Shown: one piece after another, positions 3,558 to 40,220 of the stretch
How the letters are laid out: each line of letters starts with the position of its first letter
Numbering within the stretch: the first letter of the stretch is position 1
Source: a virus
Lineage: Duplodnaviria; Heunggongvirae; Uroviricota; Caudoviricetes
Length of the DNA: 40,220 bases
Reading direction: 5' to 3' (one strand)
IMG/VR virus record: IMGVR_UViG_2671181134_000016
Notes under the pieces: generated by a model
What the model was told of the DNA's origin: nothing
Seen by the model: the letters and a program-made list of their open reading frames with translations, nothing else
Databases searched by the model: none
Translations under genes and position numbers: made by a program

Positions 3558-3920
3558 TTAATGACCTGCTGCGCGGAGTTTTCCGTCAGGCTCACCGGCA
3601 AGAGTCAGTAATTGTCCCTGGTCTTCCTGCAGAATAGTCAGGCGACCACCGCGATTGACATACATCGGCGTTTCGGTGGTGTCTTCTTCGGAAATTTTCC
3701 CACGGTTAGTCGGGCGAACATATGAGAGTTTGTGTTTGATTTTCACACGGTTCTCATCAAATGGTTCGATTTCCAGGTTGAGTGAGACCTTACCTTTGGT
3801 TTTCGTGTTCATCACACCGGAAGCGACTTCACTGAGAACTGCGCCGATTTTGGTTTCAAATACGCCGCCGTCCAGCTCCCCGATAAATGCCTGCACATCA
3901 GTACTGCGTTCGCTAGCCAT
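3558..3920 (-). CDS. YfdP-like hypothetical protein (first gene of leftward early operon)
   Basis: Internal ATG at 3920 preceded by GAGGAG; about 120 aa; the long track ORF upstream extension has no RBS. Confidence 0.6.
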   Translation of the reverse strand: MASERSTDVQAFIGELDGGVFETKIGAVLSEVASGVMNTKTKGKVSLNLEIEPFDENRVKIKHKLSYVRPTNRGKISEEDTTETPMYVNRGGRLTILQEDQGQLLTLAGEPDGKLRAAGH

Positions 3921-4528
3921 TTTGCTGCTCCTCATCATATCGACCCTGCAAGGTCGGTTGGTTTCTCCACAAAACAGAGAAGAACACCTGCGGTGACTGC
4001 CGCCCGGATGGATTGGGTTATGAGCCCGTCGTCCGATGATGCTCTTCTCTGTTTTGTAAAAAGAGCGGTACCAGCCGGAAGCAAGGGTACAAACTGGTAC
4101 CGCCAAAGCAGTGGCTGTTGTGGTGGGGTTGTCACTCAGGCGTATGGTCAACCTGACAATCCGGTGTCCTCAACGGGGAAAGAGTAACCCCGCCATACTT
4201 ACCGCCGCGCCATTTCGCGGATTACCACAACGCTGAGAGCACTTAGCCAGTTACGGCACCACACTTTGTCGCGGCTCCATAAATGCCCTCATCGTTGCAC
4301 CCTGGTCTCTTCCCAGGCGTCAAACCGAATCGCCACGCTGGTTAGGCGTCTTATCAGCATCATCATTGACTTGCACATTCCGGCTACCTGGTTTGTTTGC
4401 CCGAGCAAGGAGTGGATTGTCCCCTTTAACGTCCCCAGACCGCTAACGACGCATGTGCCATACGCCGTGTTACAACCAAATTTTGTTAGTACCTTGTTTG
4501 TTTGTCTGGAAAGAAAGATAAAATGAAG

Positions 4529-4622: not shown

Positions 4623-5315
4623 TTAATTGTGTCGCTTAAGGGTTTGTGACTGGCTGATTAAGACCTTTCCAAAGACCATAAACCGGTGTTCATTTTCGCT
4701 GGTAATTCCCCATTCACGGTAAATCTGGTTATCAGAAATCACCAGTAGTTTGTCAGGTATCATTTGCAGTCGTTTGACATAAATTTTATCATCAAAACCA
4801 AATACATAGATACCATCTCCATCAAACTGATTGATACTGACATCAACGAAGATGAGATCTCCTGGCTCAATGGTTGGACACATACTGTCCCCACGAACGT
4901 TGATAACTTTAATGTGATTGGCTGGCCGTCCGCCAAACATCGATACAGCATTATCAGTTCTGTATTCAATGGCATGAATCACATCAATGACATCACCGCC
5001 CTGGATAAGGCCATTTCCCGCACTGGCACTGACATCCAGCATTTCAATACGGAATACATCCTTCACCTGCGCAACATCCTCACTAATACTGTTTTTACAT
5101 ACAGTATTACTTTTGAAGTCTGAGGTAAAGAGATCAGCAATATCAACACCTAAGCTCTTGGCAATATTACTCAGGGCTTGTTCAGTGAATTGTTTCTGCT
5201 TACCTGTTTCCAGGCGTGAGATATTCGCCGCATCCACTCCTATTGCTTCAGCGAGATCGGCGATTTTCATGTTCTTCGCCTGGCGAAGTTGTCTGACTCG
5301 GTTTCCTATGTTCAT
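4623..5315 (-). CDS. cI: CI-type prophage repressor (N-terminal HTH, C-terminal S24 LexA-like peptidase)
   Basis: XRE-type HTH (KIADLAEAIGVDAANISRLETGK) and S24 motif (VRGDSMCPTIEPGDLIFVD ... KRL); divergent from the cro-like gene. Confidence 0.9.
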   Translation of the reverse strand: MNIGNRVRQLRQAKNMKIADLAEAIGVDAANISRLETGKQKQFTEQALSNIAKSLGVDIADLFTSDFKSNTVCKNSISEDVAQVKDVFRIEMLDVSASAGNGLIQGGDVIDVIHAIEYRTDNAVSMFGGRPANHIKVINVRGDSMCPTIEPGDLIFVDVSINQFDGDGIYVFGFDDKIYVKRLQMIPDKLLVISDNQIYREWGITSENEHRFMVFGKVLISQSQTLKRHN

Positions 5316-11544: not shown

Positions 11545-11550
11545 GGCTTA
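11532..11550. terminator. Hairpin at the convergent junction of Q and the reverse cassette (putative bidirectional terminator)
   Basis: TAAGCCC-ctgta-GGGCTTA, overlapping both stop codons; no clean T-run. Confidence 0.4.
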
Positions 11551-12132
11551 ATAATTCATATGAATTCTGTTTCCGAGATAATATAATCCAAAGAAAGTTG
11601 ATACTAAGAGTTGCCAAACGAGGAAAGTAAATACAACAGTATAAACCATTAAAACAATACTGTTTTGATAGACATTGATTAATGGTGAAAATATAGCATT
11701 AAGTATTATTATAACAATGCTTAATGCTGTTAAAAAAGAGAATAGCATGCAAAGAAATAAGCGTCTGGTCAGAACCTCCTCTGAATTTACTACTTTTCCA
11801 TTTTCTTTTGTTACTTTTATTTCAATAGAGGCATTTCTTTCATTGCTAATCAATGGTAAATCAATCTCAGCTCTATTGAAAGTTGCTATGGCGGCCAGAG
11901 CGGCAATATAAAACCCTGGTAGGTTAGAGATAAATGAAACGATTGATTTAATGAAACCATTGTCATCAAATAAATCTTTGACAGGGATTTTTAATAGAAT
12001 GAAAAGTACTGCTGTGATAGAAGTAAGTAGAATTGGTGCTACCCAATCATATGCAGCTTTGCCGCTAATACCTTTAATAAAAAGATATCCAAACGGCTTG
12101 CCTAGATGAGAGAAAACTGAAAGTATTGGCAT
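11548..12132 (-). CDS. Cassette gene C: 4-TM integral membrane protein of unknown family
   Basis: 194 aa with four hydrophobic spans; GAGG before ATG at 12132; AT-rich; last gene of a three-gene operon. Confidence 0.7.
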   Translation of the reverse strand: MPILSVFSHLGKPFGYLFIKGISGKAAYDWVAPILLTSITAVLFILLKIPVKDLFDDNGFIKSIVSFISNLPGFYIAALAAIATFNRAEIDLPLISNERNASIEIKVTKENGKVVNSEEVLTRRLFLCMLFSFLTALSIVIIILNAIFSPLINVYQNSIVLMVYTVVFTFLVWQLLVSTFFGLYYLGNRIHMNY

Positions 12133-12139
12133 AATAACC

Positions 12140-12559
12140 TCACATCAAATCTATCATTTTCACAACAAACTCTAGTTCAATTTTAACATATGAATCCTTC
12201 AGGCGCGAATTAAAGTTATCGATAATGCTTTTCTTAATAAATGTTTTTTCTAAATTATTAAGATTGATGTTTGAGGTTTTGAAATCAACCTGCCTTGGTT
12301 TATTTGTTTCAGGATCTTGGAATTTAACCTTTAATTTATCATAACCACCATTCATTTTTTTATTGAAATGAGATGCTACATTTTTAATCCATCCAATAAC
12401 ATTGTCACCATGATTTGGAAGTAATTTTAATGTACTTTCAGTCGGAATGTAAGGTGAATTAACATCAGGAGCATTAATTGTTCCGAATTGATCCTTGACT
12501 AATATGACATCTGATAATCCTTTTTGGCTTATTTTATTAAAAAGCTCCTTGTCTAACAT
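12140..12559 (-). CDS. Cassette gene B: soluble protein of unknown family
   Basis: 139 aa; ATG overlaps stop of gene A (ATGTTAG), indicating translational coupling. Confidence 0.65.
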   Translation of the reverse strand: MLDKELFNKISQKGLSDVILVKDQFGTINAPDVNSPYIPTESTLKLLPNHGDNVIGWIKNVASHFNKKMNGGYDKLKVKFQDPETNKPRQVDFKTSNINLNNLEKTFIKKSIIDNFNSRLKDSYVKIELEFVVKMIDLM

Positions 12560-13161
12560 TCCTGTAAATTCAAATATTGGTTTGTATCGTATTTTACTTC
12601 TTTTTTTGATGTTGCAGAAATAACGTTAGTTGGATGTTTTGCGGTAAATAAGTCTTCATTGTCTTTCGCCACTTCAAAGAGAATTTTGTCTAAAAAACTA
12701 TTTAACCGGGCCGTAGATACACCTGGGGTAGATGTACAAATCATATCATAGGTTCTTTTATTTCCATTTAATGATATGACAACATAGGTAGAAACTTCAT
12801 AGCCTTCACCTTGTTCATATTTTGGTTGGATTTCAACGCGTTCATTAGTATTTGTATTTTTTACAACGGTAGTACTTCCATTTTTATCAACACTATTAAT
12901 AAGAAGGACAATATGCGTGGGTGAGTTATCTGGAAGTAAAGGATAAAGTTGTACATCTTGGAGAGTAACTACAATATTCCCAGAATCATATGAATGAACG
13001 AGTCCCTTTTGTTTAACAATCAATGGGGCAAGCATGTACATTTCCGGAACAGGACATATACACTGGGCTTTTACCTCTTGTGTTGCCTTGGTTCTAAACT
13101 TTGTGTCAATGGTCAGACTATGATGAGTAACGAGTCTTTCGCTAGCATTTAATTTTGCCAT
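12553..13161 (-). CDS. Cassette gene A: soluble beta-rich protein of unknown family
   Basis: 202 aa; ATG at 13161; AT-rich; first gene of the reverse-oriented operon inserted between Q and the late operon. Confidence 0.65.
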   Translation of the reverse strand: MAKLNASERLVTHHSLTIDTKFRTKATQEVKAQCICPVPEMYMLAPLIVKQKGLVHSYDSGNIVVTLQDVQLYPLLPDNSPTHIVLLINSVDKNGSTTVVKNTNTNERVEIQPKYEQGEGYEVSTYVVISLNGNKRTYDMICTSTPGVSTARLNSFLDKILFEVAKDNEDLFTAKHPTNVISATSKKEVKYDTNQYLNLQEC

Positions 13162-26081: not shown

Positions 26082-26230
26082 CGGCTGAATACCTCACTGA
26101 TCGCTTCTTTGACTGCGCCAGCTACTGGCGCATTAATCCCTTCGAATTGCTGAATATGCCGATCAGTGAAATTCCCTTGCTGGTCAGTCAGGCAAACAGG
26201 ATAGAGCAGGAGAAACGCACACATGGCTGA
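25812..26230 (+). CDS. Tail assembly chaperone, long form via programmed -1 frameshift at 26063-26069
   Basis: -1 frame is open from the slippery site to 26230 and overlaps the tape-measure start. Confidence 0.55.
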
Positions 26231-28055
26231 ATTTGAGCTTAAGGCGTTGATCACCGGTGTCGACAGGCTTTCTCCCGCGCTGTCGAAAATGCAAAAGAAA
26301 ATCCGGGGATTTAAACGCCAGGCGGAAGAAGCGTCACAGGGTGGGCTGGCGCTTGGTGGAGGACTGGCAGCGGGGCTGACGCTTTCCCTGAAATCTTATG
26401 CCGATCAGGAAAACGCCGCTACCGGGCTGAAAGTCGCCATGATGGATGCGAACGGCGAGGTTGGAAAGAGCTTTCAGGACATCAATAAACTGGCTATTGG
26501 CCTGGGTAACCAGCTACCCGGTACAACGGCTGATTTCCAGAACATGATGCAGATGCTGGTGCGTCAGGGGATCCCGGCAGAAAACATTCTGGGTGGTGTG
26601 GGTAAAGCGACAGCTTATCTTGCGGTACAACTGAAAAAAACACCGGAAGCGGCTGCTGAGTTTGCTGCAAAGATGCAGGATGCTACCGGAACGGCGTCAG
26701 AAGACATGATGGGGCTGTTCGACACTATCCAGAAGGCGTTTTATCTGGGCGTTGACGATACCAACATGTTGTCCTTCTTCACTAAAACCAGTTCTGTTCT
26801 GAAGATGGTGAACAAGGACGGTCTTCAGGCTGCACAGAGCCTTGCCCCCATCAGCGTCATGATGGATCAGATGGGGATGAACGGGGAGTCGGCAGGTAAT
26901 GCCCTGCGAAAAGTTATCCAGTCCGGATTAAGTGTTAAGAAAATCAGGGACGTCAATAAAGTCATGGCCCGCCAGAAACTCGGGGTACAGCTCGATTTTA
27001 CTGACGGCAAAGGAAGTTTTGGCGGTCTTGATAACATGTTCAGGCAACTGGCAAAGTTGCGAAAACTGACCGACGTTAAGCGAACAGGCGTACTTAAGGC
27101 AATATTTGGTGATGATGCCGAAACCCTTCAGGTGGTCAATGCCCTGATCGATAAAGGAAAGGATGGCTACGATCAGATCCAGCAGAAGATGAATAAACAG
27201 GCCAGCCTGAATAAACGTGTTCAGGCTCAGCTTGGTACGCTGTCCAACCTGTGGGAGGCAATGACGGGGACCGCAACTAACGGTCTTGCAGCTATTGGCG
27301 GCGCATTTTCTGGTGACGCTAAAAATATCACGCAATGGCTGGGGGAGTTGGGGGAAAAATTCACGAAGTTTGCGGATGAAAATCCCCGGGTTATTCGCGG
27401 CGTCGTCGGGCTTGCTGCCGGTCTTGCGATTCTGAAACTGGGATTGATGGGCGTTGGCGGTGCCATCAGTATTGTCAGCAGGATCATGTCGATGACGCCG
27501 ATTGGCATGATTGCGACGGCGATAGCCCTGGCTGCGGGATTAATTATCACTAACTGGGATGTTGTCGGACCTTATTTTAAGAAACTCTGGGAAACCATTG
27601 GTCCTTATTTTGAGGCTGGCTGGGAACTCCTTAAGAAAGTTTTTGCCTGGTCGCCGCTGGGGATGGTGATCAATAACTGGGGGCCGGTTGTTAAGTGGTT
27701 TCAGGATATGTGGGACAAGCTGAAGCCAATTATTGAGTGGTTTACCGACAGTTCCGGTGACACGGTCGATGCCATTAACTCTGCGCAGTGGGGCGCGGGT
27801 GCTTATGATGCTTATGGGACGGGAATACCGACGCGGGGATACACACCTTATCCGGCGGTGGATCCGGCTCAGTCAAACAACGCCTCCGATGCCACAGGCC
27901 CGAATCCCTTCATGATTAACAAAGCTATCGCGCCAAAAGTTGATGGCGAGATCAAGGTTTCATTTATGAATATGCCACCAGGTATGCGGGTTACGGAAAC
28001 ACGTTCCAGTGGCATTGATATTAATCACGATGTTGGGTACACCAGATTTAGGTAA
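26223..28055 (+). CDS. Tail tape measure protein
   Basis: 610 aa, Ala/Gly-rich with hydrophobic C-terminal segments. Confidence 0.85.
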   Translation: MAEFELKALITGVDRLSPALSKMQKKIRGFKRQAEEASQGGLALGGGLAAGLTLSLKSYADQENAATGLKVAMMDANGEVGKSFQDINKLAIGLGNQLPGTTADFQNMMQMLVRQGIPAENILGGVGKATAYLAVQLKKTPEAAAEFAAKMQDATGTASEDMMGLFDTIQKAFYLGVDDTNMLSFFTKTSSVLKMVNKDGLQAAQSLAPISVMMDQMGMNGESAGNALRKVIQSGLSVKKIRDVNKVMARQKLGVQLDFTDGKGSFGGLDNMFRQLAKLRKLTDVKRTGVLKAIFGDDAETLQVVNALIDKGKDGYDQIQQKMNKQASLNKRVQAQLGTLSNLWEAMTGTATNGLAAIGGAFSGDAKNITQWLGELGEKFTKFADENPRVIRGVVGLAAGLAILKLGLMGVGGAISIVSRIMSMTPIGMIATAIALAAGLIITNWDVVGPYFKKLWETIGPYFEAGWELLKKVFAWSPLGMVINNWGPVVKWFQDMWDKLKPIIEWFTDSSGDTVDAINSAQWGAGAYDAYGTGIPTRGYTPYPAVDPAQSNNASDATGPNPFMINKAIAPKVDGEIKVSFMNMPPGMRVTETRSSGIDINHDVGYTRFR

Positions 28056-28061
28056 AGACGA

Positions 28062-28083
28062 ACAGGGAGGGCCGTCCCTCCCT
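28062..28083. terminator. Bidirectional hairpin between tape measure gene and the convergent moron
   Basis: AGGGAGGG-ccgt-CCCTCCCT. Confidence 0.5.
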
Positions 28084-28087
28084 GAAC

Positions 28088-28534
28088 TTACTGTGCGAAC
28101 ACGCAATTTCGGCCTGATGGGGAGCCGACAATTCTGGACATTTTTTCGCAAATAACAGTTACTTGTTCTCCTTTTTTAAGAGCAGCAGCTGTTGATTTTT
28201 CAGAGTCTTGCATCTCCATTCTTGCTGGCATGAATTCATTTTCAGTTCTGAATTTAATAATTATAGAGTCAGTAAAGTCCTTATCAATGGATTGTACGAT
28301 ACCTCTAACGGCGATTAATTTACCTTTTAACTGTTCATCGGTAGCGACTTCATTTTCTTCATACTCTTTAAACAGCTGTCGAGCAGTAGTGTTGTAGATT
28401 TCTTTTTGCGGTGCCGCAGCTTCCGTATCGGATGAGTATGAAGAATTAGAGCCTTTATCGTTATTGCCTGCAAAATATCCAATAATCACCAACCCGATGA
28501 AAATATATAAAATCCATTTTAATAATTTCTTCAT
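28088..28534 (-). CDS. Moron: N-terminally membrane-anchored protein with OB-fold-like (tRNA_anti-like) C-terminal domain
   Basis: MKKLLKWILYIFIGLVIIGYFAG signal-anchor; AT-rich; opposite strand inside the tail operon. Confidence 0.6.
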   Translation of the reverse strand: MKKLLKWILYIFIGLVIIGYFAGNNDKGSNSSYSSDTEAAAPQKEIYNTTARQLFKEYEENEVATDEQLKGKLIAVRGIVQSIDKDFTDSIIIKFRTENEFMPARMEMQDSEKSTAAALKKGEQVTVICEKMSRIVGSPSGRNCVFAQ

Positions 28535-28644
28535 GTTATCACCTTAATGCTAATAATTTATATGGTTACAAATGGTAATGGCTACCACTACAAATTATGG
28601 CATTACCAGTAAATATTACTACTGATAATAAATATGGGACTTAT

Positions 28645-29973
28645 ATGACGTGGAAAGACAGGCTTCAGGATGCGTCATTTCGCAGCGTGCCGTTTAAGGT
28701 TGAAGAAGAAAGTGCGGGAACCGGTCGCCGTGTGGAAACACATGAATACCCGAACCGCGACAAGCCCTATACCGAAGATCTGGGAAAAGTCACTTTCCGC
28801 CCGTCCATCACAGCTTATGTGGTGGGAGATGACTGCTTTGACCAGCGCGATCGCCTGATTGAAGCGCTGAATAAACCCGGTCCCGGCACGCTTGTCCACC
28901 CGACATATGGTGAGCTGAAAGTCTGTGTTGACGGGGAAGTTCGGGTCAGCACATCGAAAAGTGAAGGGCGTATTGTCCGCTTTGACCTGAAGTTTGTCGA
29001 AGCAGGAGAACTCTCTTACCCCACATCAGGTGCGGCGACGGCGCAGACGCTGATGTCATCCTGTTCTGCACTGGATGACTGCATCAGTGACAGCTTCAGC
29101 GGTTTCAGTATCGATGGTGTGGCGGATTTCGTGCAGAACGACGTTATCGGTAATGCCAGCACAATGCTTGGGTATGTTTCTGATGCGATGAAAGTGGTGG
29201 ATTCTGCCGTATCGGATGCCGCCAGGCTGTTGCAGGGGGATATCTCGGTACTTCTGCCGCCGCCATCCTCAGGCAAAAATTTCGTTGAGCAGGTGCAGAA
29301 AATGTGGCGTACCGGGAAACGCCTTTATGGTAACGCCAGCGACCTGGTCACCATGATCAAAACGCTTTCCGGTGTCAGCCTCGGCAGCGATCTGCAACCG
29401 CGCGGCGTCTGGAAAACGGACAGTAAAACCACCGCCACGGCGACGCAGCAGCGTAACGTGGTTGCCAGCACCCTTCGTACGACCGCAATCAGCGAAGCGG
29501 CGTATGCCGTCACCCGATTGCCTGCGCCAACAACTTCCGCGGTGATGCAGAATTCCGCAGTGGGGCAGGCAACAACACCCGCGCAGAGCACTGGCTGGCC
29601 TTCCGTCACGCATCCGGCACTGAACAATGCACCGGCGGTGAAAAACACGGTTGACCTGCCGACGTGGGAAGAACTGACTGACATTCGCGACACACTGAAT
29701 ACGGCAATTGATAAGGAGTTGTCCCGTACAACCAGTGATGCGCTGTTTCTGGCGCTGCGCCGGGTGAAAGCAGATCTGAATGCGGATATCAACACGCGCC
29801 TTGAACAGTCTGCACGGATCATTCAGCGCACACCGGATGAGGTTTTACCCGCGCTGGTGCTGGCGGCGACCTGGTTTGATAACGCGGCGCGTGACGCGGA
29901 CATTATCCGGCGTAATGCCATTACGCATCCCGGCTTTGTGCCGGTGATCCCTCTGAAGGTGCCAGTGCAATGA
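28645..29973 (+). CDS. DNA circulation protein (Mu gpN/gp43-like); start uncertain (28597 or 28645)
   Basis: Position after tape measure in Mu-like order. Confidence 0.75.
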   Translation: MTWKDRLQDASFRSVPFKVEEESAGTGRRVETHEYPNRDKPYTEDLGKVTFRPSITAYVVGDDCFDQRDRLIEALNKPGPGTLVHPTYGELKVCVDGEVRVSTSKSEGRIVRFDLKFVEAGELSYPTSGAATAQTLMSSCSALDDCISDSFSGFSIDGVADFVQNDVIGNASTMLGYVSDAMKVVDSAVSDAARLLQGDISVLLPPPSSGKNFVEQVQKMWRTGKRLYGNASDLVTMIKTLSGVSLGSDLQPRGVWKTDSKTTATATQQRNVVASTLRTTAISEAAYAVTRLPAPTTSAVMQNSAVGQATTPAQSTGWPSVTHPALNNAPAVKNTVDLPTWEELTDIRDTLNTAIDKELSRTTSDALFLALRRVKADLNADINTRLEQSARIIQRTPDEVLPALVLAATWFDNAARDADIIRRNAITHPGFVPVIPLKVPVQ

Positions 29974-33645: not shown

Positions 33646-34308
33646 ATGCATCGTATAGACACGAAAACCGCGCAGAAGGATAAGTTCGGCGCGGGTAAGA
33701 ACGGTTTTACCCGTGGTAACCCCCAGACTGGCACACCTGCCACCGATCTGGATGATGACTACTTTGATATGTTGCAGGAAGAACTCTGCAGCGTGGTGGA
33801 GGCATCCGGTGCCAGCCTGGAGAAGGGGCGAAACGACCAGTTGCTTACCGCGCTTCGTGCTCTGCTGTTAAGCCGCAAGAATCCGTTTGGTGATATCAAA
33901 TCGGATGGCACGGTGAAAACGGCTCTCGAAAACCTTGGTTTGGGAGAAGCGGCAAGACGGGGGGTGGGAACAGGGGAAAATCAGATACCGGACATGGCTT
34001 CATTTAGTGGGGTGAGGGATTATTACGGAAAACAACTTTTGCCAGGAGGGTTGATACTTCAGTGGCTGACGATTCCATCAAGTGCAGCAGCTAAAGCTGT
34101 AACACTGAATAATGGTAATTATCAGCTGTCAGGCTATAAATGGCCCCAGTCATTTGGTGTCCTGTTTGCTGTGTTTGCCACAAAAGTTTCTGGCTCGACT
34201 AACGAAGCATATGCAATCTCAGTTAATCGTCACTCTACCGATGTAATTGTCACCTGGAATGCCCGTAAGGCTGATGATGTCCACATTTTAGGAATTGGGA
34301 AATTATGA
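33646..34308 (+). CDS. Tail fibre protein: constant N-terminal part (to about 33948) fused to the currently expressed variable C-terminal part
   Basis: GGAG Shine-Dalgarno; the inversion crossover site lies inside the gene at codons 97-101. Confidence 0.8.
33935..33949. repeat. Left inversion crossover site (TTGGTTTGGGAGAAG)
   Basis: Perfect 15-bp inverted repeat with the right site; embedded in the tail fibre gene. Confidence 0.65.
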
Positions 34309-34724
34309 AAATGAAATGGTCCCCATCTGTTCAGGGATTTTTCTCTGAAAATAACAGCGATATTCCCGATGATGCTTTCGATATTGAAGATGCTCTTTAT
34401 TATGAACTTATGAATGGTCAGAGTACGGGGAAAATTATTATCAATAACCCGGATAACTACCCTGTACTTACTGAATATCCAGCGAAGACACAGGAACAGG
34501 AAATAGCTGAAGCGGAGGGAATGAAAAGTATACTTATTGAACAGGCCAACGAATACATGAACAGTAAGCAATGGCCTGGTAAAGCCGCTATTGGTCGTCT
34601 GAAAGGTGAGGAACTGGCGCAATATAATTTGTGGCTGGATTATCTGGACGCACTGGAACTGGTTGATACCTCCAGTGCGCCAGATATTGAATGGCCTACG
34701 CCTCCGGCAGTTCAGGCCAGATGA
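34305..34724 (+). CDS. Tail fibre assembly protein (Tfa, expressed orientation)
   Basis: C-terminal conserved Tfa motif (...WPTPP...); coupled to the tail fibre stop. Confidence 0.8.
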
Positions 34725-35298
34725 CATCCGGCGCGGTGCTGGTATCTGTTGCCGTCACCGAGTCAATGTAATCCAGCACAGCGTTAAGTCGGGTGTTTTC
34801 TGTCTGCGTCAGCTTCCGCCCGGCCTGTAATTTCAGTTGAATCAGACTGATGGAAGCCATTGCAGCATCAATCAGCGACTGGCGCTGTGCTTCTGCCGCT
34901 TCTACTGCGGCGCTATGCTGTGCCTCAGTATCGGTCACCCATTTCTCACCATCCCATTCATCGTATGGCGTTAACGGGGCGATAGTGGTTGTATTTTCAG
35001 GATAATCACCCGGAGTTGTGATTTCTTTCGATTCTCCTGTTTCGGTGCTATAGATGATTTCACCGCGATGATCTGGTACATATTCCCATGAGTTAAAATC
35101 TGCAGAGCGGCAGATTGCATAACCAGCTTTGTAGGTGCCTGGAGCATCTAAACAGGAATATGCCGGAATGCCGACACCAACAGCAAGATATTCAGTTGAA
35201 GCTGAAATATACTCCCGACTCATGACGTCAAAGTTATAAACAGTAATTTCTCCTGCCATAGTGGCAATTAATTCACTGTTTAATTCTGCGTTATTCAT
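34696..35298 (-). CDS. Alternative tail fibre assembly protein (Tfa', silent orientation)
   Basis: C-terminus ...[12 protein letters not shown] is Tfa-like; convergent with Tfa. Confidence 0.75.
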   Translation of the reverse strand: MNNAELNSELIATMAGEITVYNFDVMSREYISASTEYLAVGVGIPAYSCLDAPGTYKAGYAICRSADFNSWEYVPDHRGEIIYSTETGESKEITTPGDYPENTTTIAPLTPYDEWDGEKWVTDTEAQHSAAVEAAEAQRQSLIDAAMASISLIQLKLQAGRKLTQTENTRLNAVLDYIDSVTATDTSTAPDVIWPELPEA

Positions 35299-35783
35299 TA
35301 TGCAGCCCTCACAATATAGTTAAAAGCGACATTTCGTGGGCGTGTTTCATTCGCACCTGCAGGTTTAGTCGTTGCCGCAACAACACCACCCTCTGTAATA
35401 GCCGGGTTGGGAATTGGGTAATTATCGAAGTCAATGGCTGGAGACAGGGGCGTGATTTGTTTTAAAATCGTGGTGCCTGTAAAACTTCCCAGAGTCTGGT
35501 CGTTAGTTCGTGAAGTCCAGATTCCCCAATAGTGGTTATGACTGACAATCGCACCGTCCTGAAGCGTTAATAATCCCCTTCCGTTATCCACTCCACGTCC
35601 GTCATCCCAGCCACGAATAAACTCACCGCGTAAATCAGGTAATTTATTTGTCGGATAAGCCTTTGCCAGTTCCGGGTATTCTTCAGCAGAAAAAGCTGCT
35701 CCGTTGCATTTCAGCCAGCCTGTTGGCGGAGTGGCTGAAGGCCACGGAACAGGCACACCAACGGGTAATGCTGAGCCTTCTCC
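35298..35783 (-). CDS. Alternative tail-fibre variable C-terminal segment (Sv'), lacking its own start; fused to the constant part upon inversion
   Basis: The frame continues from the crossover repeat (GLGE) with no ATG; the track's 'M' at 35786 is a TTG. Confidence 0.7.
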   Translation of the reverse strand, partial: GEGSALPVGVPVPWPSATPPTGWLKCNGAAFSAEEYPELAKAYPTNKLPDLRGEFIRGWDDGRGVDNGRGLLTLQDGAIVSHNHYWGIWTSRTNDQTLGSFTGTTILKQITPLSPAIDFDNYPIPNPAITEGGVVAATTKPAGANETRPRNVAFNYIVRAA

Positions 35784-35791
35784 CAAACCAA
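35777..35791. repeat. Right inversion crossover site (reverse complement of TTGGTTTGGGAGAAG)
   Basis: Inverted copy immediately upstream of the invertase gene. Confidence 0.65.
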
Positions 35792-35857
35792 CCTTTTAGA
35801 AAATGCAGTTGTTTCGTTCAGGTGGCATGATTCCGGCTTTTTACAGGGCTATTTATC

Positions 35858-36406
35858 ATGCTTATCGGCTATGTACGCGTGTCAACAAATGACCAGAACA
35901 CGGCATTGCAGCGAAACGCGCTGGATTGCGTAGGATGTGAACTGATATTCGAAGATAAGATCAGCGGCAGAAGTCTGACAGACCGGGACTGAAGAAGGTG
36001 CTCAGGACGCTATCAGAAGGCGATACGCTGGTGGTCTGGAAACCGGATCGTCTCGGTCGCAGCATGCGGCATCTTGTCGTTCTGGTGGAGGATACGGGAA
36101 AGAGGGATTAACTTTCGCAGCCTGACCGACAGCATAGACACATCTTCGCCAATGGGGCGTTTTTTCTTTCACGTTATGGGCGCTCTGGCTGAAATGGAGC
36201 GAGAACTGATTGTCGAACGCACTAGGGCGGGCCTTGCCGCGGCTCGTGAAGAAGGGCGGATCGGTGGGCGTCGTCCAAGGCTAACAGATGAGCAATGGGT
36301 GCAGGCAGGAAGATTGATAGCTGCTGGGGAATCACGGCAGCGCATAGCGATCATCTATGATGTTGGCGTATCGACGCTGTATAAAAAATTCCCGGTTAAT
36401 TGTTAA
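35858..36406 (+). pseudogene. pin: Pin/Gin/Hin-family serine DNA invertase disrupted by two compensating frameshifts (-1 near 35969-35977, +1 near 36091-36094)
   Basis: N-terminus MLIGYVRVSTNDQNT and C-terminus RERGINFRSLTDSIDTSSPMGRFFFHVMGALAEMERELI are in the same frame; the middle (DRPGLKKVLRTLSEGDTLVVWKPDRLGRSM) is in another frame; stop at 35990 in the start frame. Confidence 0.8.
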
Positions 36407-36720: not shown

Positions 36721-37681
36721 ATGGATTCAAGAAGATATTTGCATACTGTAATATTAATTGCTGGTATAGTATTTATATGTATATTGGTTATATACTTAAT
36801 TTATCCAAAGGTGATATTTACTATCAGTGATAACTATTTAAATCCATTGGTTTTAATAGCGATGGTTTTGTCGTTTTCCTCAGTAGTGCTGTTATTTATA
36901 AAGTATTTAAATAAGGATATTGGCAATGATCATTCTAAAAAAGAAACAGCACAGAATTATGCCATTGAACTGAAGAAAGAACTAGAAAGAATAAATGGGA
37001 GACTTGAGGCAATAGATAGGCCCATTGCTGGAAAATCCAGTGATATCATACTAAGTGATGCGGAGAGAGCAGATTTTATTGAAAGGGCGAAAAAGAAAAT
37101 TGCAGGTGAAATGATAATTAATGCATCAGAAAGTTTAAAAAAAGAGATGCAACACATTAAAGAACAGTTAAGTATTAATGAGCATTATGAAGATATGGTT
37201 TACAGAATCAAAAAAGAAATAGATAGACTTAACAGGCGAGGTGGAGCTAACCTTGGCATTGGTGCTTCAATCGCTTTTTTTGGAATAGCGTATCTGGGTT
37301 ATGTTGTTTCAAAACAAACTGTCACGACCGATGTAATTAATTATCTGATTCATATGTTACCTCGAATTTCTTTTGTATTAGTTATAGAGGTTTTTGCATA
37401 TTTTTTTTCTAAAGTTATATAAAAATGGTTTTGATGAGGTAAAATATTTTCAAAATGAATTGACAAATATTGAGGCAAAAGTATTGGCCATTAAATTTTT
37501 AAAAGATGTTAAAAATGAAGATTTAATGGCTGAAGTTATAAAAAATCTAATGACAACAGAGAGGAATTTTATATTATCAAAAGGACAGACGACTGTGGCA
37601 TTAGAAAAAGAAAAAATCAAGGGGCTTGAAGATAAAAATGCTTTATCTATTATAAAGGAGTTAATTAAGTTAAAAAGTTAG
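36721..37681 (+). pseudogene. AT-rich membrane / coiled-coil protein of unknown family, interrupted by a +1 frame change in a T8 homopolymer (37401-37408)
   Basis: ATG at 36721 with AAGGGA upstream; 2 TM + coiled coil + 2 TM; deleting one T in the T8 run joins both ORFs into about 320 codons. Confidence 0.5.
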
Positions 37682-37985
37682 CGGGGATATTAAGTGAGGT
37701 TGGTTGTACGTTGCAGGTGCTTGTGCATCTGCATTTAAATAATGAGGTTTAATTAAACAGCACGTGAATAATAAAATAAATAGGCTGTTTAATTTTTTTA
37801 ATAGGGAGGGAAGGTAGCTCATGATTTTTACTGGGTAGGTGATATAGCTTATTGTAGTATCGTTCATGCTTGTTGAACTTAAGGTTTGATACTCCGCCAT
37901 ATATACCGGTCCGCTGAGAATGTAAGATACAAAAGTCTTTTATAGTATCAAGTTATACTTCACGAGCAAAATATGAGGAGTGTTT

Positions 37986-38198
37986 ATGAAGGGAAGAACC
38001 ATTGCTGACTATGCAAAGTTAGCGCAAGAATCTGCCAAACGTAACGTATTAAGAACTGAGTTTAGTGAGTATCTCAAGGTAAATGGCCTGGAGAGGAGTG
38101 AAGAGAATGCTCATACTTTTGCCTTTGGGAAAACAAACAATCATGACGATAGAGTTAATCTTGTACATATGCTGATGTCAGGTGTATGGGGTGGCTAA
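37986..38198 (+). CDS. Small hypothetical protein (70 aa)
   Basis: ATG at 37986 with GAGGAG Shine-Dalgarno 5 nt upstream. Confidence 0.4.
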   Translation: MKGRTIADYAKLAQESAKRNVLRTEFSEYLKVNGLERSEENAHTFAFGKTNNHDDRVNLVHMLMSGVWGG

Positions 38199-38529
38199 AT
38201 CATCATTAAGGCTGGAAAATTTTCACCAATGAAGGTTGCTGTTTTCTGTAAGCTTTTGAGGGTACAGCAATGAGAATTATGAAGTATTGGAGAAAAATAA
38301 ATTCAACTAATTGATTACACTATATAAAATGCATGATTTAAATTCTCTCTTTAGAGTGAACCTACTGAATAGTGTTAGCTGTCGATTTTGACCAAAAAAG
38401 GGTTATCAAAACCCAAAAACATATATTGATAATCAGTGGGTTAGGGGAATGCCGATAGTCAGTTGGTTAAGTGTGAATTGGTGGAATTATACTTACATAT
38501 CAAATTGTTGGTATTAGTCTTTCTAAATA

Positions 38530-38694
38530 ATGTTACGCCATATGGGCTGGACTGAAGCCGCAGACCTGATTGTTAAAGGTATGGAAGGCGCAATCAATGC
38601 GAAGACCGTAACCTATGACTTCGAGCGTCTGATGGAAGGCGCTAAACTGCTGAAATGTTCAGAATTTGGTGACGCGATCATCAAGAACATGTAA
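38530..38694 (+). pseudogene. icd: 3' fragment of isocitrate dehydrogenase gene (icdC-like attachment-site remnant)
   Basis: Encodes [54 protein letters not shown], the remembered C-terminus of E. coli Icd; in-frame stop immediately upstream shows it is a detached fragment. Confidence 0.85.
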
Positions 38695-38717
38695 TCACTA
38701 CATGTGTTTAATATTGC

Positions 38718-38745
38718 AACGGGCGTATAACACGCCCGTTGTTTT
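38718..38745 (+). terminator. icd rho-independent terminator
   Basis: AACGGGCGT-ataac-ACGCCCGTT followed by gtttt. Confidence 0.7.
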
Positions 38746-38796
38746 ATTTATGTAGGTATTATTAATAGCATATCGAGCATATTTATATAAAACCCT

Positions 38797-39120
38797 TTAC
38801 TTGAGCCCATATGGGCATATTTTTATAATGCAACTATTATGCAAACATTTATTTGTTATTTTGCTTTCTCCTGGAGGACACTCTTGACTGCTTTTGAGTA
38901 GACTCCATAAATCCTTGTTGAATGGTGCGATGTTATAAATAGTAATAGGATATTCTTTATCTTTAAGGATAATTCCAGATTTAACCGGTGTAAATATACT
39001 GCCAGGAGGGAGAAATATAGTAGATTGATACCAGATGATCATTTTCATATTACCCCATATGGCTGAAAAAGATATGCCGCATGAAGGTTGAATTATCGTG
39101 TCAATTACTATCCACTTCAT
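38797..39120 (-). CDS. iraM: IraM-like anti-adaptor protein (host gene)
   Basis: 107 aa starting MKWIVIDT..., matching remembered E. coli IraM; expected position after icdC. Confidence 0.7.
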
Positions 39121-39577
39121 TTGTTATGTCTTATCCCACGGTATTTAATATAGTTCATTTGGATGTTCATTTCTTTATTTTGCATATGAGTATATTACCC
39201 CTTCAAAAAATAAATTAATTAAAACGATTGCTTATATAAAACAAAATTTAAAGCAAGGAATCTCAATGGATGTTAAACAAAATGAGATTTAGTGAAAACA
39301 ATAAATTATTCACTTCGTTTTAGATTTGTTTAGCTATAATGTTATACATTCAAATGACTGAACATCCTGTAATTAAAACATAGCCTTTATGCTACTTTGT
39401 GCCAATTTGCTAAACATTATGGTTGCCTTTTTATATAACGATAATAATGAATGTAAGCATGACATGAGAATAAGGTTTCAATTTTTGAGTTATATAGGAA
39501 AGGTTTAACCTGTTCCTGGCTAAAATACATATAACTGGATGATGACTAAACCAAAACACATGTGCGTTAAGTATTGA

Positions 39578-39605
39578 AACGGGCGTATGGCACACCCGTT
39601 GTTTT
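39578..39605 (+). repeat. Second, diverged copy of the icd-terminator hairpin element
   Basis: catgtgcgttaagtattgaAACGGGcgtatggcacaCCCGTTgttttt, about 85% identical to 38701-38750. Confidence 0.5.
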
Positions 39606-39815
39606 TATAAATATATTAACCGTTATAAAATAACGTATAGAAAGTCAAGTGATCACATTTCAAATATCAATTTGATAGTATTGGCATGGTGATTATTTAT
39701 GGGTAGCAATAAAAGGACAGTATTTATCATCCATAGGGATAGTCTCTGTACTTTTATTCCCATTATGCTAATGCCTTACTGAATTATGAAGCATTTCTTA
39801 AGCATCCAACTTTAG

Positions 39816-40220
39816 CTAGATTAATGGTTTATTATTTTCTACATCTTCAATATATAAAAGCGTATTATCAATGGCGTAGTAACTGCGTTTGTTATGATTA
39901 ACATCAGTAACCCACCGGAAAACGCCCGCGCCTGCTAGTGTTGAACAGTATTCCCGAAATGTAGATTTTCCGCAAATATGAAGCAATGCGGCCTCTTTTA
40001 TTTTAGCAGGGTTCTTGGTCGTACTAACTTTTAACAGGTTCCTGGTTCCTCTTAATAACAAAACCGTGTCATCGTGAGTAATAATTCTGATGTTATCCGT
40101 AGCCAGATAATAAATGTAATGTGCAATACGGTGATGTTTTAATTCTGAATAAAACCAGGAGAAGTTTTGCTCTTTTCTCACTTGCTCAAACATCTTTTGA
40201 AAAACAACGACCTGATCCAT
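39816..40220 (-). CDS. Hypothetical host protein (ycgX-like position); ATG coincides with the window end
   Basis: 134-codon ORF; gene order icd-fragment, iraM, then this gene matches remembered E. coli K-12 context. Confidence 0.5.
   Translation of the reverse strand: MDQVVVFQKMFEQVRKEQNFSWFYSELKHHRIAHYIYYLATDNIRIITHDDTVLLLRGTRNLLKVSTTKNPAKIKEAALLHICGKSTFREYCSTLAGAGVFRWVTDVNHNKRSYYAIDNTLLYIEDVENNKPLI

What the first reader, a model, noticed from the sequence alone, without database searches (positions are those of the whole stretch)
28088..28534. Reverse-strand moron inside the tail operon encoding a membrane-anchored OB-fold-like protein
A 148-aa AT-rich gene with its own promoter region sits on the opposite strand between the tape measure gene and the DNA-circulation gene, with a hairpin separating it from the tape measure gene. 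It has an N-terminal signal-anchor and a C-terminal domain whose pattern (...KEYEENEVATDEQLKGKLIAVRGIVQSI...) resembles small OB-fold 'tRNA_anti-like' proteins. A gene in this position is unlikely to be structural and is likely expressed from the lysogen.
Basis: partly seen in the sequence, partly recalled or inferred. Interest (0 to 1): 0.55.

Follow-up and report, generated by a model that had tools for sequence, protein, structure and literature searches.

The report
Prophage Sie2009-like membrane OB-fold exclusion gene
A small gene inserted backwards in the tail operon of an E. coli prophage encodes a membrane-tethered, periplasm-facing OB-fold protein that is a distant relative of Sie2009, a lactococcal phage protein known to block DNA injection by other phages, so it is most likely a prophage defence gene, untested in Gram-negative bacteria.

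Summary
Window 28088-28534 (-) is a real 148-aa gene. It is AT-rich (GC about 0.35, flanks about 0.55) and lies convergent with the tape measure gene and divergent from the DNA-circulation gene of an SfV-like E. coli prophage.

Phages SfV, SfII and SfI have only about 45 bp at this site. Only 75 of about 1093 E. coli genomes with this junction carry the gene, so it is not a tail component.

The new result is homology to Sie2009 of lactococcal phage Tuc2009. Both fall in phrog_8545, and profile-profile comparison gives 98.5% probability (E 3e-15). In P2/186-like prophages, homologs sit directly downstream of the immunity repressor.

The best reading is a lysogen-expressed block of phage genome entry (confidence 0.58). 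Expression, topology and function are inferred, not shown. It is a new member of a known kind.

The parts
28088..28534 (-). Gene for the 148-aa membrane-tethered OB-fold protein (RefSeq WP_000734912.1, 'OB-fold protein'); the stop codon is 28088-28090.
   Evidence: ORF; PF12869 E 2.9e-19; phrog_8545 E 1.5e-49; RefSeq annotation; whole-gene dN/dS about 0.03-0.10 between alleles where dS could be estimated.
28469..28534 (-). Codons 1-22: MKKLLK followed by a hydrophobic helix. This is an N-in signal-anchor with no cysteine, so it is not a lipoprotein signal.
   Evidence: Hydropathy maximum at residues 4-22 and charge +2.5 on the N-terminal segment; helix at residues 2-21 of the model; homologs P0064 and P0067 have an ISGC lipobox instead.
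28406..28468 (-). Codons 23-43: Ser/Thr/Asn-rich flexible linker, the most variable part of the protein.
   Evidence: pLDDT below 50 for model residues 23-35; variable length and sequence in alignment A2; dN 0.64-0.68 against alleles L003 and L010 and 0.23 against L038, compared with 0.12-0.14 for the domain.
28091..28405 (-). Codons 44-148: OB-fold domain with the conserved motifs YxxNEVATDE, QSIDKDF and TxNEFMPA, and two invariant cysteines (C128, C143).
28540..28545 (-). Shine-Dalgarno sequence AAGGTG, 5 nt upstream of the ATG.
   Evidence: Read directly from the sequence; AGGTGAT is shared by the window, L003, L041 and L038, whereas L010 has GAGGATG at that position.
28594..28602 (-). Candidate extended -10 promoter element TGC-CATAAT. 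The predicted transcription start is near 28587.
   Evidence: TGC-N-ATAA-(T/A)-TT is invariant in four alleles whose surrounding intergenic DNA has diverged. It is not picked up by the strict two-hexamer scan.
28053..28084 (-). Hairpin CAGGGAGGG-ACGG-CCCTCCCTG (28063-28084) followed by TTCGTCTTTA (28053-28062). This is a candidate one-directional terminator for the OB transcript. It has no T-run on the + strand, so late tail transcription should read through.
   Evidence: Terminator scan; dG -19.5 kcal/mol, z -3.0; the same GGGAGGG/CCCTCCC core is present in the L010 allele but absent in L003.
28056..28636 (.). DNA that is extra relative to SfV, SfII and SfI, which have about 45 bp with their own hairpin plus T-run here. 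It comprises the OB gene with its regulatory flanks.
   Evidence: Megablast gaps and three-way alignment; span of 975 bp in empty-slot genomes against 1501 bp in the window.
27680..28700 (.). Recombination cassette: the block that differs between otherwise near-identical E. coli prophages. It covers the last ~120 codons of the tape measure gene, the OB gene, the intergenic DNA and the first codons of the DNA-circulation gene.
   Evidence: Sliding identity against L003 is 54-79% inside the block and 94-100% outside it. dS is 1.7 or saturated inside and about 0.06-0.07 outside.
26223..28055 (+). Tail tape measure gene (flank), convergent with the OB gene.
   Evidence: phrog_28/17727; PF10145 in homologous loci.
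28645..29973 (+). DNA-circulation / baseplate hub gene (Mu gpN-like; flank), divergent from the OB gene.
   Evidence: phrog_184/17109; start as in SfV orf15 and in RefSeq annotation.

Best explanation
The gene encodes a Sie2009-type superinfection-exclusion protein adapted to a Gram-negative envelope.

Proposed mechanism:
1. In the lysogen, the gene is transcribed from its own extended -10 promoter on the strand opposite to the silent tail operon. The transcript stops at the hairpin just before the tape measure gene.
2. The protein inserts into the inner membrane with a short N-in anchor.
3. It displays a disulfide-stabilised OB-fold domain in the periplasm on a flexible linker of about 20 residues.
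4. There it interferes with genome delivery by incoming phages after adsorption. It does so either by binding the emerging tail tip or tape measure complex, or by masking a membrane component that triggers or conducts DNA entry.
5. During lytic growth, late transcription runs antisense through the gene and should silence it.

Shown here: the gene, its insertion, purifying selection between alleles, the family and fold, the homology to Sie2009, and the repressor-operon position of homologs.

Inferred: transcription in lysogens, topology, the disulfide, the exclusion phenotype and the target.
For: - Homology to a characterised exclusion protein. Sie2009 (Tuc2009 orf2, encoded between int and the repressor) falls in the same phrog_8545 (E 1.7e-79; the window protein scores 1.5e-49). 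It passes the PF12869 threshold (43.3 bits against 23.5).
- The family profile against Sie2009 gives 97.7% probability, E 1.3e-12. With the OB domains alone it gives 95.8%, E 6.8e-9, and 20 shuffled controls all score below 1%. Family against family gives 98.5%, E 3.2e-15.
- Lysogeny-module context. Of 80 IMG/VR loci, 26 have the gene in the Mu-tail slot and 29 have it downstream of a recognisable immunity repressor on the same strand (13 adjacent, 16 with one gene between). Examples are a Yersinia ruckeri P2/186-like prophage with CI, then OB 31 bp later, then int, and Burkholderia phage Carl1 with repressor, membrane protein, OB, terminator.
- Periplasmic display. The anchor follows the positive-inside rule. 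Two cysteines are invariant in all 37 sequences of alignment A2, which include the named Enterobacterales homologs, and are absent from Sie2009. Lipobox variants and variants with a cytoplasmic zinc ribbon, a TM helix and the OB domain also exist. The OB domain of the related TcdC was shown experimentally to be extracellular (bioRxiv 10.1101/872283).
- Accessory rather than structural.
- Own expression signals.
- Positional precedent. The HK97 gp15 moron lies next to the tape measure gene and encodes an inner-membrane exclusion protein (PMC3594210).
Against: - No Gram-negative member has been tested, and none turned up in the literature searches.
- Identity to Sie2009 is only about 26%, so function may have diverged. 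TcdC, another relative, has been assigned a different and disputed role.
- There is no PADLOC hit.
- Some close homologs are chromosomal and not in prophages, for example in Pantoea and in locus L096.
- The canonical OB ligand face is the most conserved part across very different phages and hosts. That fits a conserved ligand better than a fast-evolving phage protein.
- About a fifth to a quarter of allele-A copies are inactivated by a 5' deletion, a lost start codon or a frameshift.
- No canonical promoter was found and no transcript data exist.
Confidence: 0.58

Rival explanations
1. It is a prophage-borne envelope fitness factor unrelated to phage exclusion. The periplasmic OB domain would bind a host envelope ligand, such as an oligosaccharide, peptidoglycan or a porin, and alter stress, antimicrobial-peptide or serum resistance, as the periplasmic OB-fold proteins YdeI and YgiW do.
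For: - Chromosomal, non-prophage homologs exist in Pantoea and other Enterobacterales.
- The OB binding face is strongly conserved across hosts.
- The domain is slightly acidic (pI 5.6).
- Extracellular ligands of this kind have been proposed for TcdC.
Against: - There is no Pfam match to the BOF family.
- The gene is strongly associated with prophage lysogeny modules.
- It is homologous to Sie2009, whose phenotype is phage exclusion.
Confidence: 0.17
2. It is an immunity or shield protein against periplasm-acting weapons other than phages, such as tailocins, bacteriocins or secreted effectors. Exclusion of contractile devices would be the selected trait.
For: - Every Gram-negative carrier whose tail type I could identify has a contractile tail: Mu-like, P2/186-like, Burkholderia P2-like, Klebsiella and Serratia baseplate-J phages, and Bordetella vB_BaM.
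- In Pantoea the gene lies in a variable island next to a WapI-like immunity gene.
- Some homologs are tethered by a TM helix and others by a lipobox, which suggests a target that spans or floats in the periplasm.
Against: - This is purely circumstantial, and no known immunity family matched.
- Sie2009 is carried by siphoviruses and acts against siphoviruses.
Confidence: 0.1
3. It is a sensor or regulator of the TcdC type, or a true nucleic-acid binder as the Pfam name implies. It would bind extracellular or incoming DNA, or signal across the membrane.
For: - The TcdC profile hits PF12869, and TcdC binds G-quadruplex DNA in vitro (PMC3575817).
- Zinc-ribbon variants have a cytoplasmic module.
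Against: - The window protein has only 6 cytoplasmic residues, so it cannot signal inward.
- The domain has net charge -1 and is not basic.
- It lacks the TcdC coiled-coil dimerisation segment; the linker is disordered.
- A periplasmic location is far from the cell's own nucleic acids.
Confidence: 0.08
4. It is a tail-assembly accessory, a decaying remnant or a non-functional ORF.
For: - It lies inside the tail operon.
- Several copies are inactivated.
Against: - It is absent from the isolated phages SfV, SfII, SfI and SKA5, which have the same tail.
- It is on the opposite strand and has a periplasmic topology.
- Whole-gene dN/dS is about 0.03-0.10 between anciently diverged alleles that kept the same slot in E. 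coli and Buttiauxella phages.
Confidence: 0.03

Closest known systems
Sie2009 (orf2 of Lactococcus phage Tuc2009) and related lactococcal Sie proteins
   Same: - Same PHROG (8545) and the same Pfam family (PF12869).
- Profile-profile homology of 98.5%.
- Same architecture: N-terminal membrane anchor, Ser/Thr/Gly-rich linker and OB domain.
- Both are prophage-encoded accessory genes, and homologs of the window gene occupy the same repressor-integrase position.
- Shared motifs: Y-x2-N-x2-A-x-D-x3-KGK and T-x-N-[EQ]-F.
   Different: - Only about 26% identity.
- The host is Gram-negative, so the domain is periplasmic rather than surface-exposed, and it carries two invariant cysteines that Sie2009 lacks.
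- The carrier is a myovirus-tailed prophage rather than a P335 siphovirus.
- Here the gene is a reverse-strand insert in the tail operon rather than part of the lysogeny module.
- The phenotype is untested.
TcdC of Clostridioides difficile and its homologues in Lactobacillus and Leuconostoc phages
   Same: - Membrane anchor followed by a C-terminal OB fold related to PF12869 (HHpred 98.3% in PMC3575817).
- The OB domain was shown to be outside the cell.
- The phage homologues lie between cI and int.
   Different: - TcdC has a coiled-coil dimerisation segment between anchor and OB; here the linker is disordered.
- The TcdC-like ORF22 of phage A2 did not reach PF12869 in my scan.
- I made no direct comparison with the TcdC sequence.
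- TcdC is discussed as a toxin regulator.
HK97 gp15 moron
   Same: - A moron adjacent to the tape measure gene in a tail operon, expressed from the prophage.
- An inner-membrane protein that blocks genome entry without masking the outer-membrane receptor.
- It has chromosomal homologs in Enterobacteriaceae (PMC3594210).
   Different: - An unrelated protein (YebO-like, with no OB domain).
- It lies before the tape measure gene.
- I did not check its strand.
PDB 3F1Z, 'putative nucleic acid-binding lipoprotein' of Klebsiella pneumoniae
   Different: - Only 16% identity.
- It has a lipoprotein anchor rather than a TM helix.
- Its function is unknown, so it adds nothing on mechanism.
Other entry-blocking prophage proteins: Ltp (TP-J34), P22 SieA, T4 Imm/Sp, Cor and T5 Llp
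   Same: Small envelope-anchored proteins made by the resident phage that stop infection at or just after adsorption. Ltp and gp15 depend on the incoming tail or tape measure protein.
   Different: - No sequence or fold relationship was detected.
- Cor and Llp act on the outer-membrane receptor FhuA.

Membership tests
Pfam PF12869 (tRNA_anti-like OB fold) | Score above the curated gathering threshold of the family HMM | tested here: met
   69.5 bits against a cutoff of 23.5, E 2.9e-19, covering residues 2-130.
Pfam PF12869 (tRNA_anti-like OB fold) | Five-stranded OB barrel like the founding structure 3F1Z | tested here: met
Sie2009-type superinfection exclusion proteins (phrog_8545) | Sequence homology to Sie2009 extending over the extracytoplasmic domain | tested here: met
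   Both proteins fall in phrog_8545. hhalign gives 97.7%, 95.8% with the domains alone and shuffled controls below 1%, and 98.5%, E 3.2e-15, family against family.
Sie2009-type superinfection exclusion proteins (phrog_8545) | Small protein with a hydrophobic N-terminus that anchors it in the membrane | tested here: met
   148 aa; Kyte-Doolittle maximum of 2.16 at residues 4-22; helix at residues 2-21 of the model. Membrane association itself is predicted, not measured.
Sie2009-type superinfection exclusion proteins (phrog_8545) | Encoded by a temperate phage and expressed from the prophage (lysogeny module or own promoter) | tested here: inconclusive
   The window prophage has int and a CI-like repressor. 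An extended -10 element is conserved. In 29 of 80 phage loci homologs lie in the repressor operon position. No expression data are available.
Sie2009-type superinfection exclusion proteins (phrog_8545) | Blocks DNA injection of superinfecting phages while adsorption stays normal | not testable with these tools
   This needs plating, adsorption and DNA-entry assays.
TcdC family | Coiled-coil dimerisation segment between the membrane anchor and the OB fold | tested here: not met
   Residues 23-43 are Ser/Thr-rich, have pLDDT below 50 and no predicted helix.
TcdC family | OB domain outside the cytoplasmic membrane | not testable with these tools
   Predicted from the positive-inside rule, the invariant cysteine pair, and the lipobox and zinc-ribbon variants. 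It was shown experimentally only for TcdC.
Moron (Juhala/Hendrix sense) | Extra DNA relative to close relatives, with deviant base composition and its own promoter and terminator | tested here: met
   The insert is absent from SfV, SfII and SfI. GC is 0.35 against 0.55. There is a candidate extended -10 and a hairpin plus T-tract. The promoter and terminator are candidates only.
Bacterial lipoprotein ('OB-fold putative lipoprotein' in some annotations) | Lipobox with an invariant cysteine at the end of the signal peptide | tested here: not met
   There is no cysteine in residues 1-127 of the window protein. Only some homologs (P0064, P0067) have ISGC.
Ltp-type Sie lipoproteins | Lipoprotein with Ltp repeat domains | tested here: not met
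   No such Pfam or PHROG match.
Known anti-phage defence systems (PADLOC-DB 2.0) | Match to a PADLOC model | tested here: not met
   0 families at E <= 1.

The most novel reading that the evidence does not exclude
Sie2009, TcdC and this E. coli protein would be one ancient, cross-phylum family of externally displayed OB-fold proteins that temperate phages use to close the door behind them.

The conserved canonical OB face would bind a universal feature of the injection process, such as the emerging tape measure or tail-tip conduit, or the DNA itself. The exchangeable cassette that couples the OB allele to the tape measure C-terminus (27680-28700) would encode matched specificity.

If so, the 20-year-old question of how Sie2009 blocks injection, and the puzzle of what the extracellular TcdC domain does, would become testable with E. 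coli genetics.
Probability: 0.2. Interest if true: 0.72.

Novelty: new member of a known kind. Interest (0 to 1): 0.47.

Why it matters
How phage genomes cross the periplasm and inner membrane, and how resident prophages block that step, is still poorly understood. The mechanism of the prototype Sie2009 is unknown (PMC7693887).

A Gram-negative homolog in E. coli prophages offers a tractable system, with known phages, genetics, and PhoA and Dsb tools. It is present in 75 of 5426 complete genomes and is recurrent in P2/186-like repressor operons.

The link also suggests that many proteins annotated only as "OB-fold protein" or "tRNA_anti-like" in prophages are entry-blocking defences. These are missed by current defence-finder models and are relevant to predicting phage host range and phage-therapy failure.

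Tried and rejected
- Sequence search of the PDB found only noise.
- NCBIfam and PADLOC found nothing.
- Rfam on 27700-28900 gave only a sub-threshold eukaryotic lncRNA match, which is spurious.
- The strict sigma-70 scan found no promoter upstream. It did find an 11/12 match inside the ORF (28287..28260). That match is produced by the conserved codons for SIDKDF...SIII and recurs in L010, so I treat it as a coding by-product.
- I suspected a third OB allele in E. coli (H124). It turned out to be allele A with a 140-bp 5' deletion.
- I tested for rapid positive selection as the cause of the 72% identity between E. coli alleles and rejected it. dS is saturated, so this is replacement by an old allele.
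- I looked for strict coupling of the OB allele with the tape measure C-terminus type and did not find it. The type-1 C-terminus occurs with an empty slot, with other cargos or with OB allele A. Type-2-like C-termini occur with OB allele B or with an unrelated 2-TM protein.
- Phage A2 ORF22, called TcdC-like in the literature, did not reach PF12869 by hmmscan.
- Literature searches for tRNA_anti-like with phage, Sie-like, OB-fold with superinfection exclusion, the 3F1Z name and the RefSeq accession found no functional study of this subfamily.
- I could not obtain model coordinates, so the C128-C143 distance and surface conservation were not measured.
Full report
**1. Observation**

The ORF at 28088-28534 on the minus strand encodes 148 aa starting MKKLLKW. 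It is preceded by AAGGTG five bases before the ATG. GC falls to 0.345-0.41 over the gene, against 0.50-0.60 in the tail genes on either side.

The left neighbour (26223-28055, +) is a tape measure protein. The right neighbour is the Mu gpN-like DNA-circulation / baseplate hub protein. Its true start is most likely ATG 28645, as in SfV orf15 and in RefSeq annotation of the same prophage.

A 9-bp GC-rich hairpin (28063-28084) fills the 32-bp spacer between the two convergent stop codons. Its dG is -19.5 kcal/mol and its z-score is -3.0. It is followed by TTCGTCTTTA on the minus strand only.

**2. What the surrounding element is**

The window matches E. coli S19-651 at 100% identity over the 1501-base segment tested (27500-29000). 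It is an SfV/SfII/SfI-like temperate prophage with a Mu-type contractile tail, an integrase (591-1721) and a CI-like HTH/S24 repressor (4623-5315).

In SfV, SfII and SfI the tape measure and DNA-circulation genes are separated by about 45 bp that form a hairpin plus T-run. The window has an insert of about 580 bp (28056-28636) there instead, a net gain of about 526 bp.

About 1093 of 5426 complete E. coli genomes contain this junction. Only 75 of them have the OB gene. An evenly spaced sample of 60 records gave the following slot contents:

| Slot content | Records of 60 | Share |
|---|---|---|
| Empty (975-bp span) | 27 | about 45% |
| Forward-strand secreted-looking ORF, SKA5 type (phrog_8976) | 13 | about 22% |
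| OB gene | 4 | about 7% |
| 225-aa protein (phrog_1353) | 3 | about 5% |
| bPH_1 protein | 1 | about 2% |
| Other hypothetical protein | 1 | about 2% |
| Only one flank aligned | 11 | about 18% |

Prophages with a different tape measure C-terminus carry either a second OB allele or an unrelated reverse-strand protein with two TM helices. The site is therefore a cargo hotspot, and the OB gene is one optional cargo. It cannot be a required tail component.

**3. The protein**

- **Family.** Pfam PF12869 (tRNA_anti-like) matches at E 2.9e-19, well above threshold.
- **Topology (inferred).** The N-terminal segment carries +2.5 charge before a strongly hydrophobic 19-mer. The only two cysteines, C128 and C143, are invariant in all 37 sequences of the alignment and are missing from the Gram-positive relative Sie2009. 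Some homologs replace the TM helix with an ISGC lipobox. Others add a cytoplasmic zinc ribbon before the TM helix. Together these indicate an N-in, C-out orientation with a disulfide-bonded periplasmic domain.
- **Charge.** The domain is slightly acidic (pI 5.6, net charge -1). That argues against the non-specific nucleic-acid binding implied by the family name.
- **Conservation.** The most conserved segments are YxxNEVATDE in the helices, QSIDKDF at the end of the first strand and into the following loop, TxNEFMPA in the loop before the third strand, and RxVGxPxGxxC across the last two strands.

**4. Evolution**

The same slot, in the same reverse orientation, holds 71-73% identical alleles in another E. 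coli prophage (L003), in a Buttiauxella prophage (L010) and in metagenomic phages (L038-L041).

- Between the window and L003, the flanking tail proteins are 98-99% identical (dS about 0.07), but the OB protein is only 72% identical.
- Divergence is confined to about 27680-28700. That block also includes the last ~120 codons of the tape measure gene.
- Inside the block dS is 1.7 or saturated, while dN for the OB domain is only 0.12. Whole-gene dN/dS is about 0.03-0.10 where dS could be estimated.

The alleles are therefore old and under purifying selection. The difference between the E. coli prophages is a cassette exchange, not fast evolution in place.

The coupling of OB allele and tape measure C-terminus is not strict. 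The SfV-type C-terminus also occurs with an empty slot and with other cargos.

Within allele A there is visible decay. A 140-bp deletion removes the promoter, ribosome-binding site and anchor in L099 and L033-L037. The start codon is ATA in L017 and L032. A frameshifted form (P0002) also exists. From the coverage figures, I estimate that about a fifth of allele-A copies in complete genomes carry the deletion.

**5. Expression signals**

The strict two-hexamer scan finds no promoter between the gene and the DNA-circulation gene. Aligning the upstream regions of four diverged alleles shows one invariant block, TGC-N-ATAA-(T/A)-TT. In the window this is TGC-CATAAT at 28602..28594, and it reads as an extended -10 element. 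The intergenic sequence around it has drifted, apart from the start of the DNA-circulation gene and the Shine-Dalgarno region near the OB start codon.

The hairpin core GGGAGGG/CCCTCCC recurs downstream of the L010 allele but not the L003 allele. On the + strand the hairpin lacks a T-run, so late tail transcription should pass through it.

These are candidate signals. Transcription in lysogens is inferred.

**6. Where relatives sit in other phages**

I classified 80 IMG/VR loci encoding relatives:

| Position of the OB gene | Loci |
|---|---|
| Mu-tail slot | 26 |
| Downstream of a recognisable immunity repressor, same strand, adjacent | 13 |
| Downstream of a recognisable immunity repressor, same strand, one gene between | 16 |
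| Not classifiable with my small reference panel | 25 |

Clear examples:
- A Yersinia ruckeri P2/186-like prophage has CI, then the OB gene 31 bp later, then the integrase.
- Burkholderia phage Carl1 has the repressor, a membrane protein, the OB gene and a terminator, converging on tail gene D.
- A Klebsiella phage carries a zinc-ribbon version as a reverse-strand gene in its baseplate module.
- A Serratia prophage carries the gene at its end, after the tail fibres.
- Pantoea homologs and one other are chromosomal.

The position next to the repressor is the strongest indirect evidence that this family is made in lysogens.

**7. The link to a characterised protein**

The PHROG that best matches the window protein, phrog_8545, is labelled "superinfection exclusion Sie-like". 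I traced the label to orf2 of Lactococcus phage Tuc2009, which is Sie2009 and lies between int and the repressor.

- Sie2009 scores E 1.7e-79 against phrog_8545.
- It passes the PF12869 threshold at 43.3 bits.
- Its own cluster is named "OB-fold protein" by NCBI.
- My family profile aligns to Sie2009 with 97.7% probability.
- With the anchors and linkers removed, the probability is 95.8% (E 6.8e-9), and 20 shuffled controls score below 1%.
- Family against family it is 98.5% (E 3.2e-15), over the OB domain only.

[quoted passage not shown] Its mechanism is unknown. Proposals are contact with the distal tail, or masking of the injection trigger (PMC7693887, PMC4737114).

A second relative is TcdC of C. 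difficile:
- Its profile hits PF12869.
- Its homologues in Lactobacillus and Leuconostoc phages lie between cI and int (PMC3575817).
- Its OB domain was shown to be outside the cell (bioRxiv 10.1101/872283).

**8. Most likely mechanism**

The prophage makes the protein constitutively from its own promoter. The protein sits in the inner membrane with its OB domain tethered a few nanometres into the periplasm. After a superinfecting phage adsorbs, the domain prevents the step in which the tail tip and tape measure open a path for DNA.

The reverse orientation means that late transcription of the tail operon is antisense to the gene. It would therefore be silenced during the phage's own lytic growth.

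Confidence that the main function is phage exclusion at entry is 0.58. The target is unknown.

**9. Rivals**

- An envelope fitness factor with a host ligand (0.17).
- A shield against tailocins or other periplasm-acting weapons (0.10). This was suggested because every Gram-negative carrier I could type has a contractile tail.
- A TcdC-like sensor or a true nucleic-acid binder (0.08). This is unlikely because the protein has only six cytoplasmic residues and a non-basic domain.
- A tail accessory or junk ORF (0.03).

**10. Comparison and novelty**

By sequence and fold the gene is a member of PF12869/phrog_8545. By position and predicted action it resembles the HK97 gp15 moron, which lies beside the tape measure gene and encodes an inner-membrane exclusion protein (PMC3594210).

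The gene is already annotated as "OB-fold protein", and the PHROG carries a Sie-like label. No functional study of a Gram-negative member turned up. A 2024 review of superinfection exclusion mentions neither Sie2009 nor OB folds.

I therefore rate it a new member of a known kind, of moderate interest. Its value is as a tractable E. coli entry point to an unsolved mechanism.

Noticed in passing
window 11548-13161 (-): A second AT-rich reverse-strand cassette (GC 0.32-0.39) matches the PADLOC candidate defence system PDC-M53. M53B is 11548-12132 (E 1.8e-54). M53A appears split into two ORFs, 12553-13161 and 12140-12559, which cover profile positions 4-165 and 225-318 of 320. This may be a frameshift.
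   Followed up: partly
window 33646-36406: Mu G-segment-like arrangement. A tail fibre gene and its assembly gene lie on the + strand (33646-34724). They face an inverted tail-fibre-assembly gene (34696-35298 -) and a tail-collar fragment (35298-35786 -). These are followed by a truncated DNA invertase (36074-36406, covering profile positions 99-202 of 254).
   Followed up: partly
L001 1838-2350; L013 912-1289; L014 947-1624; L104 1533-1970: The junction between the tape measure and DNA-circulation genes is a polymorphic cargo slot in E. coli SfV-like prophages. Alternative cargos are a secreted-looking 170-aa protein (phrog_8976, about 22% of junctions), a bPH_1 domain protein, a 225-aa phrog_1353 protein, and a reverse-strand 145-aa protein with two TM helices. 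All are of unknown function.
   Followed up: partly
L099 2005-2391; L033-L037; L017, L032; P0002: Inactivated copies of the same allele. One recurrent 140-bp deletion removes the promoter, RBS and anchor. Two loci have the start codon changed from ATG to ATA. One form is frameshifted at the C-terminus.
   Followed up: yes
window 27680-28055 (tape measure C-terminus): The last ~120 residues of the tape measure protein are an exchangeable module. They are 62% identical between E. coli prophages whose remaining tape measure sequence is 99% identical, and in that pair they were swapped together with the OB allele. Whether this reflects matched specificity or only recombination breakpoints is open.
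   Followed up: partly
L009 4001-4351 (+) (Bordetella phage vB_BaM-IFTN4): The OB homolog is not annotated. The record instead annotates an ORF on the opposite strand (3850-4326). The homolog lies downstream of the repressor gene and in the same direction.
   Followed up: no
P0160-P0251 (Lactococcus lactis proteins of 163-166 aa): Many lactococcal proteins share a short stretch of Sie2009, about 20% of its length, at 94-100% identity and otherwise do not align to it. A minority are annotated with DUF3862 (PF12978) and most carry no Pfam domain; none has the OB domain. I did not check which part of Sie2009 is shared. If it is the N-terminal anchor and linker, extracellular domains would have been shuffled on a common anchor.
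   Followed up: no
L002 1760-1804 (SfV) compared with window 28535-28644: SfV, SfII, SKA5 and the Buttiauxella phage have a hairpin plus T-run on the tail-operon strand just before the DNA-circulation gene (annotated as a terminator in SfII). The window allele has lost it, and its Shine-Dalgarno sequence for the DNA-circulation gene is weaker (GGGA instead of GGAG).
   Followed up: no
window 28260-28287 (-): A near-consensus promoter-like match (TTGATA-16-TATAAT, 11 of 12) lies inside the OB gene. It coincides with the conserved codons for SIDKDF...SIII, and a weaker version is present at the same place in L010. It is probably a by-product of coding.
   Followed up: partly
L003, L007, L008, L010, L011, L098: Every Gram-negative phage carrier whose tail I could identify has a contractile tail (Mu-like, P2/186-like, or baseplate-J/sheath-initiator types). 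Sie2009, by contrast, is in a siphovirus. This was not tested statistically.
   Followed up: no
window 37000-40220: The right end of the window is strongly AT-rich (GC about 0.32). Its ORFs match only PHROGs of unknown function (phrog_5157, phrog_4407). It could be further cargo or the prophage border.
   Followed up: no
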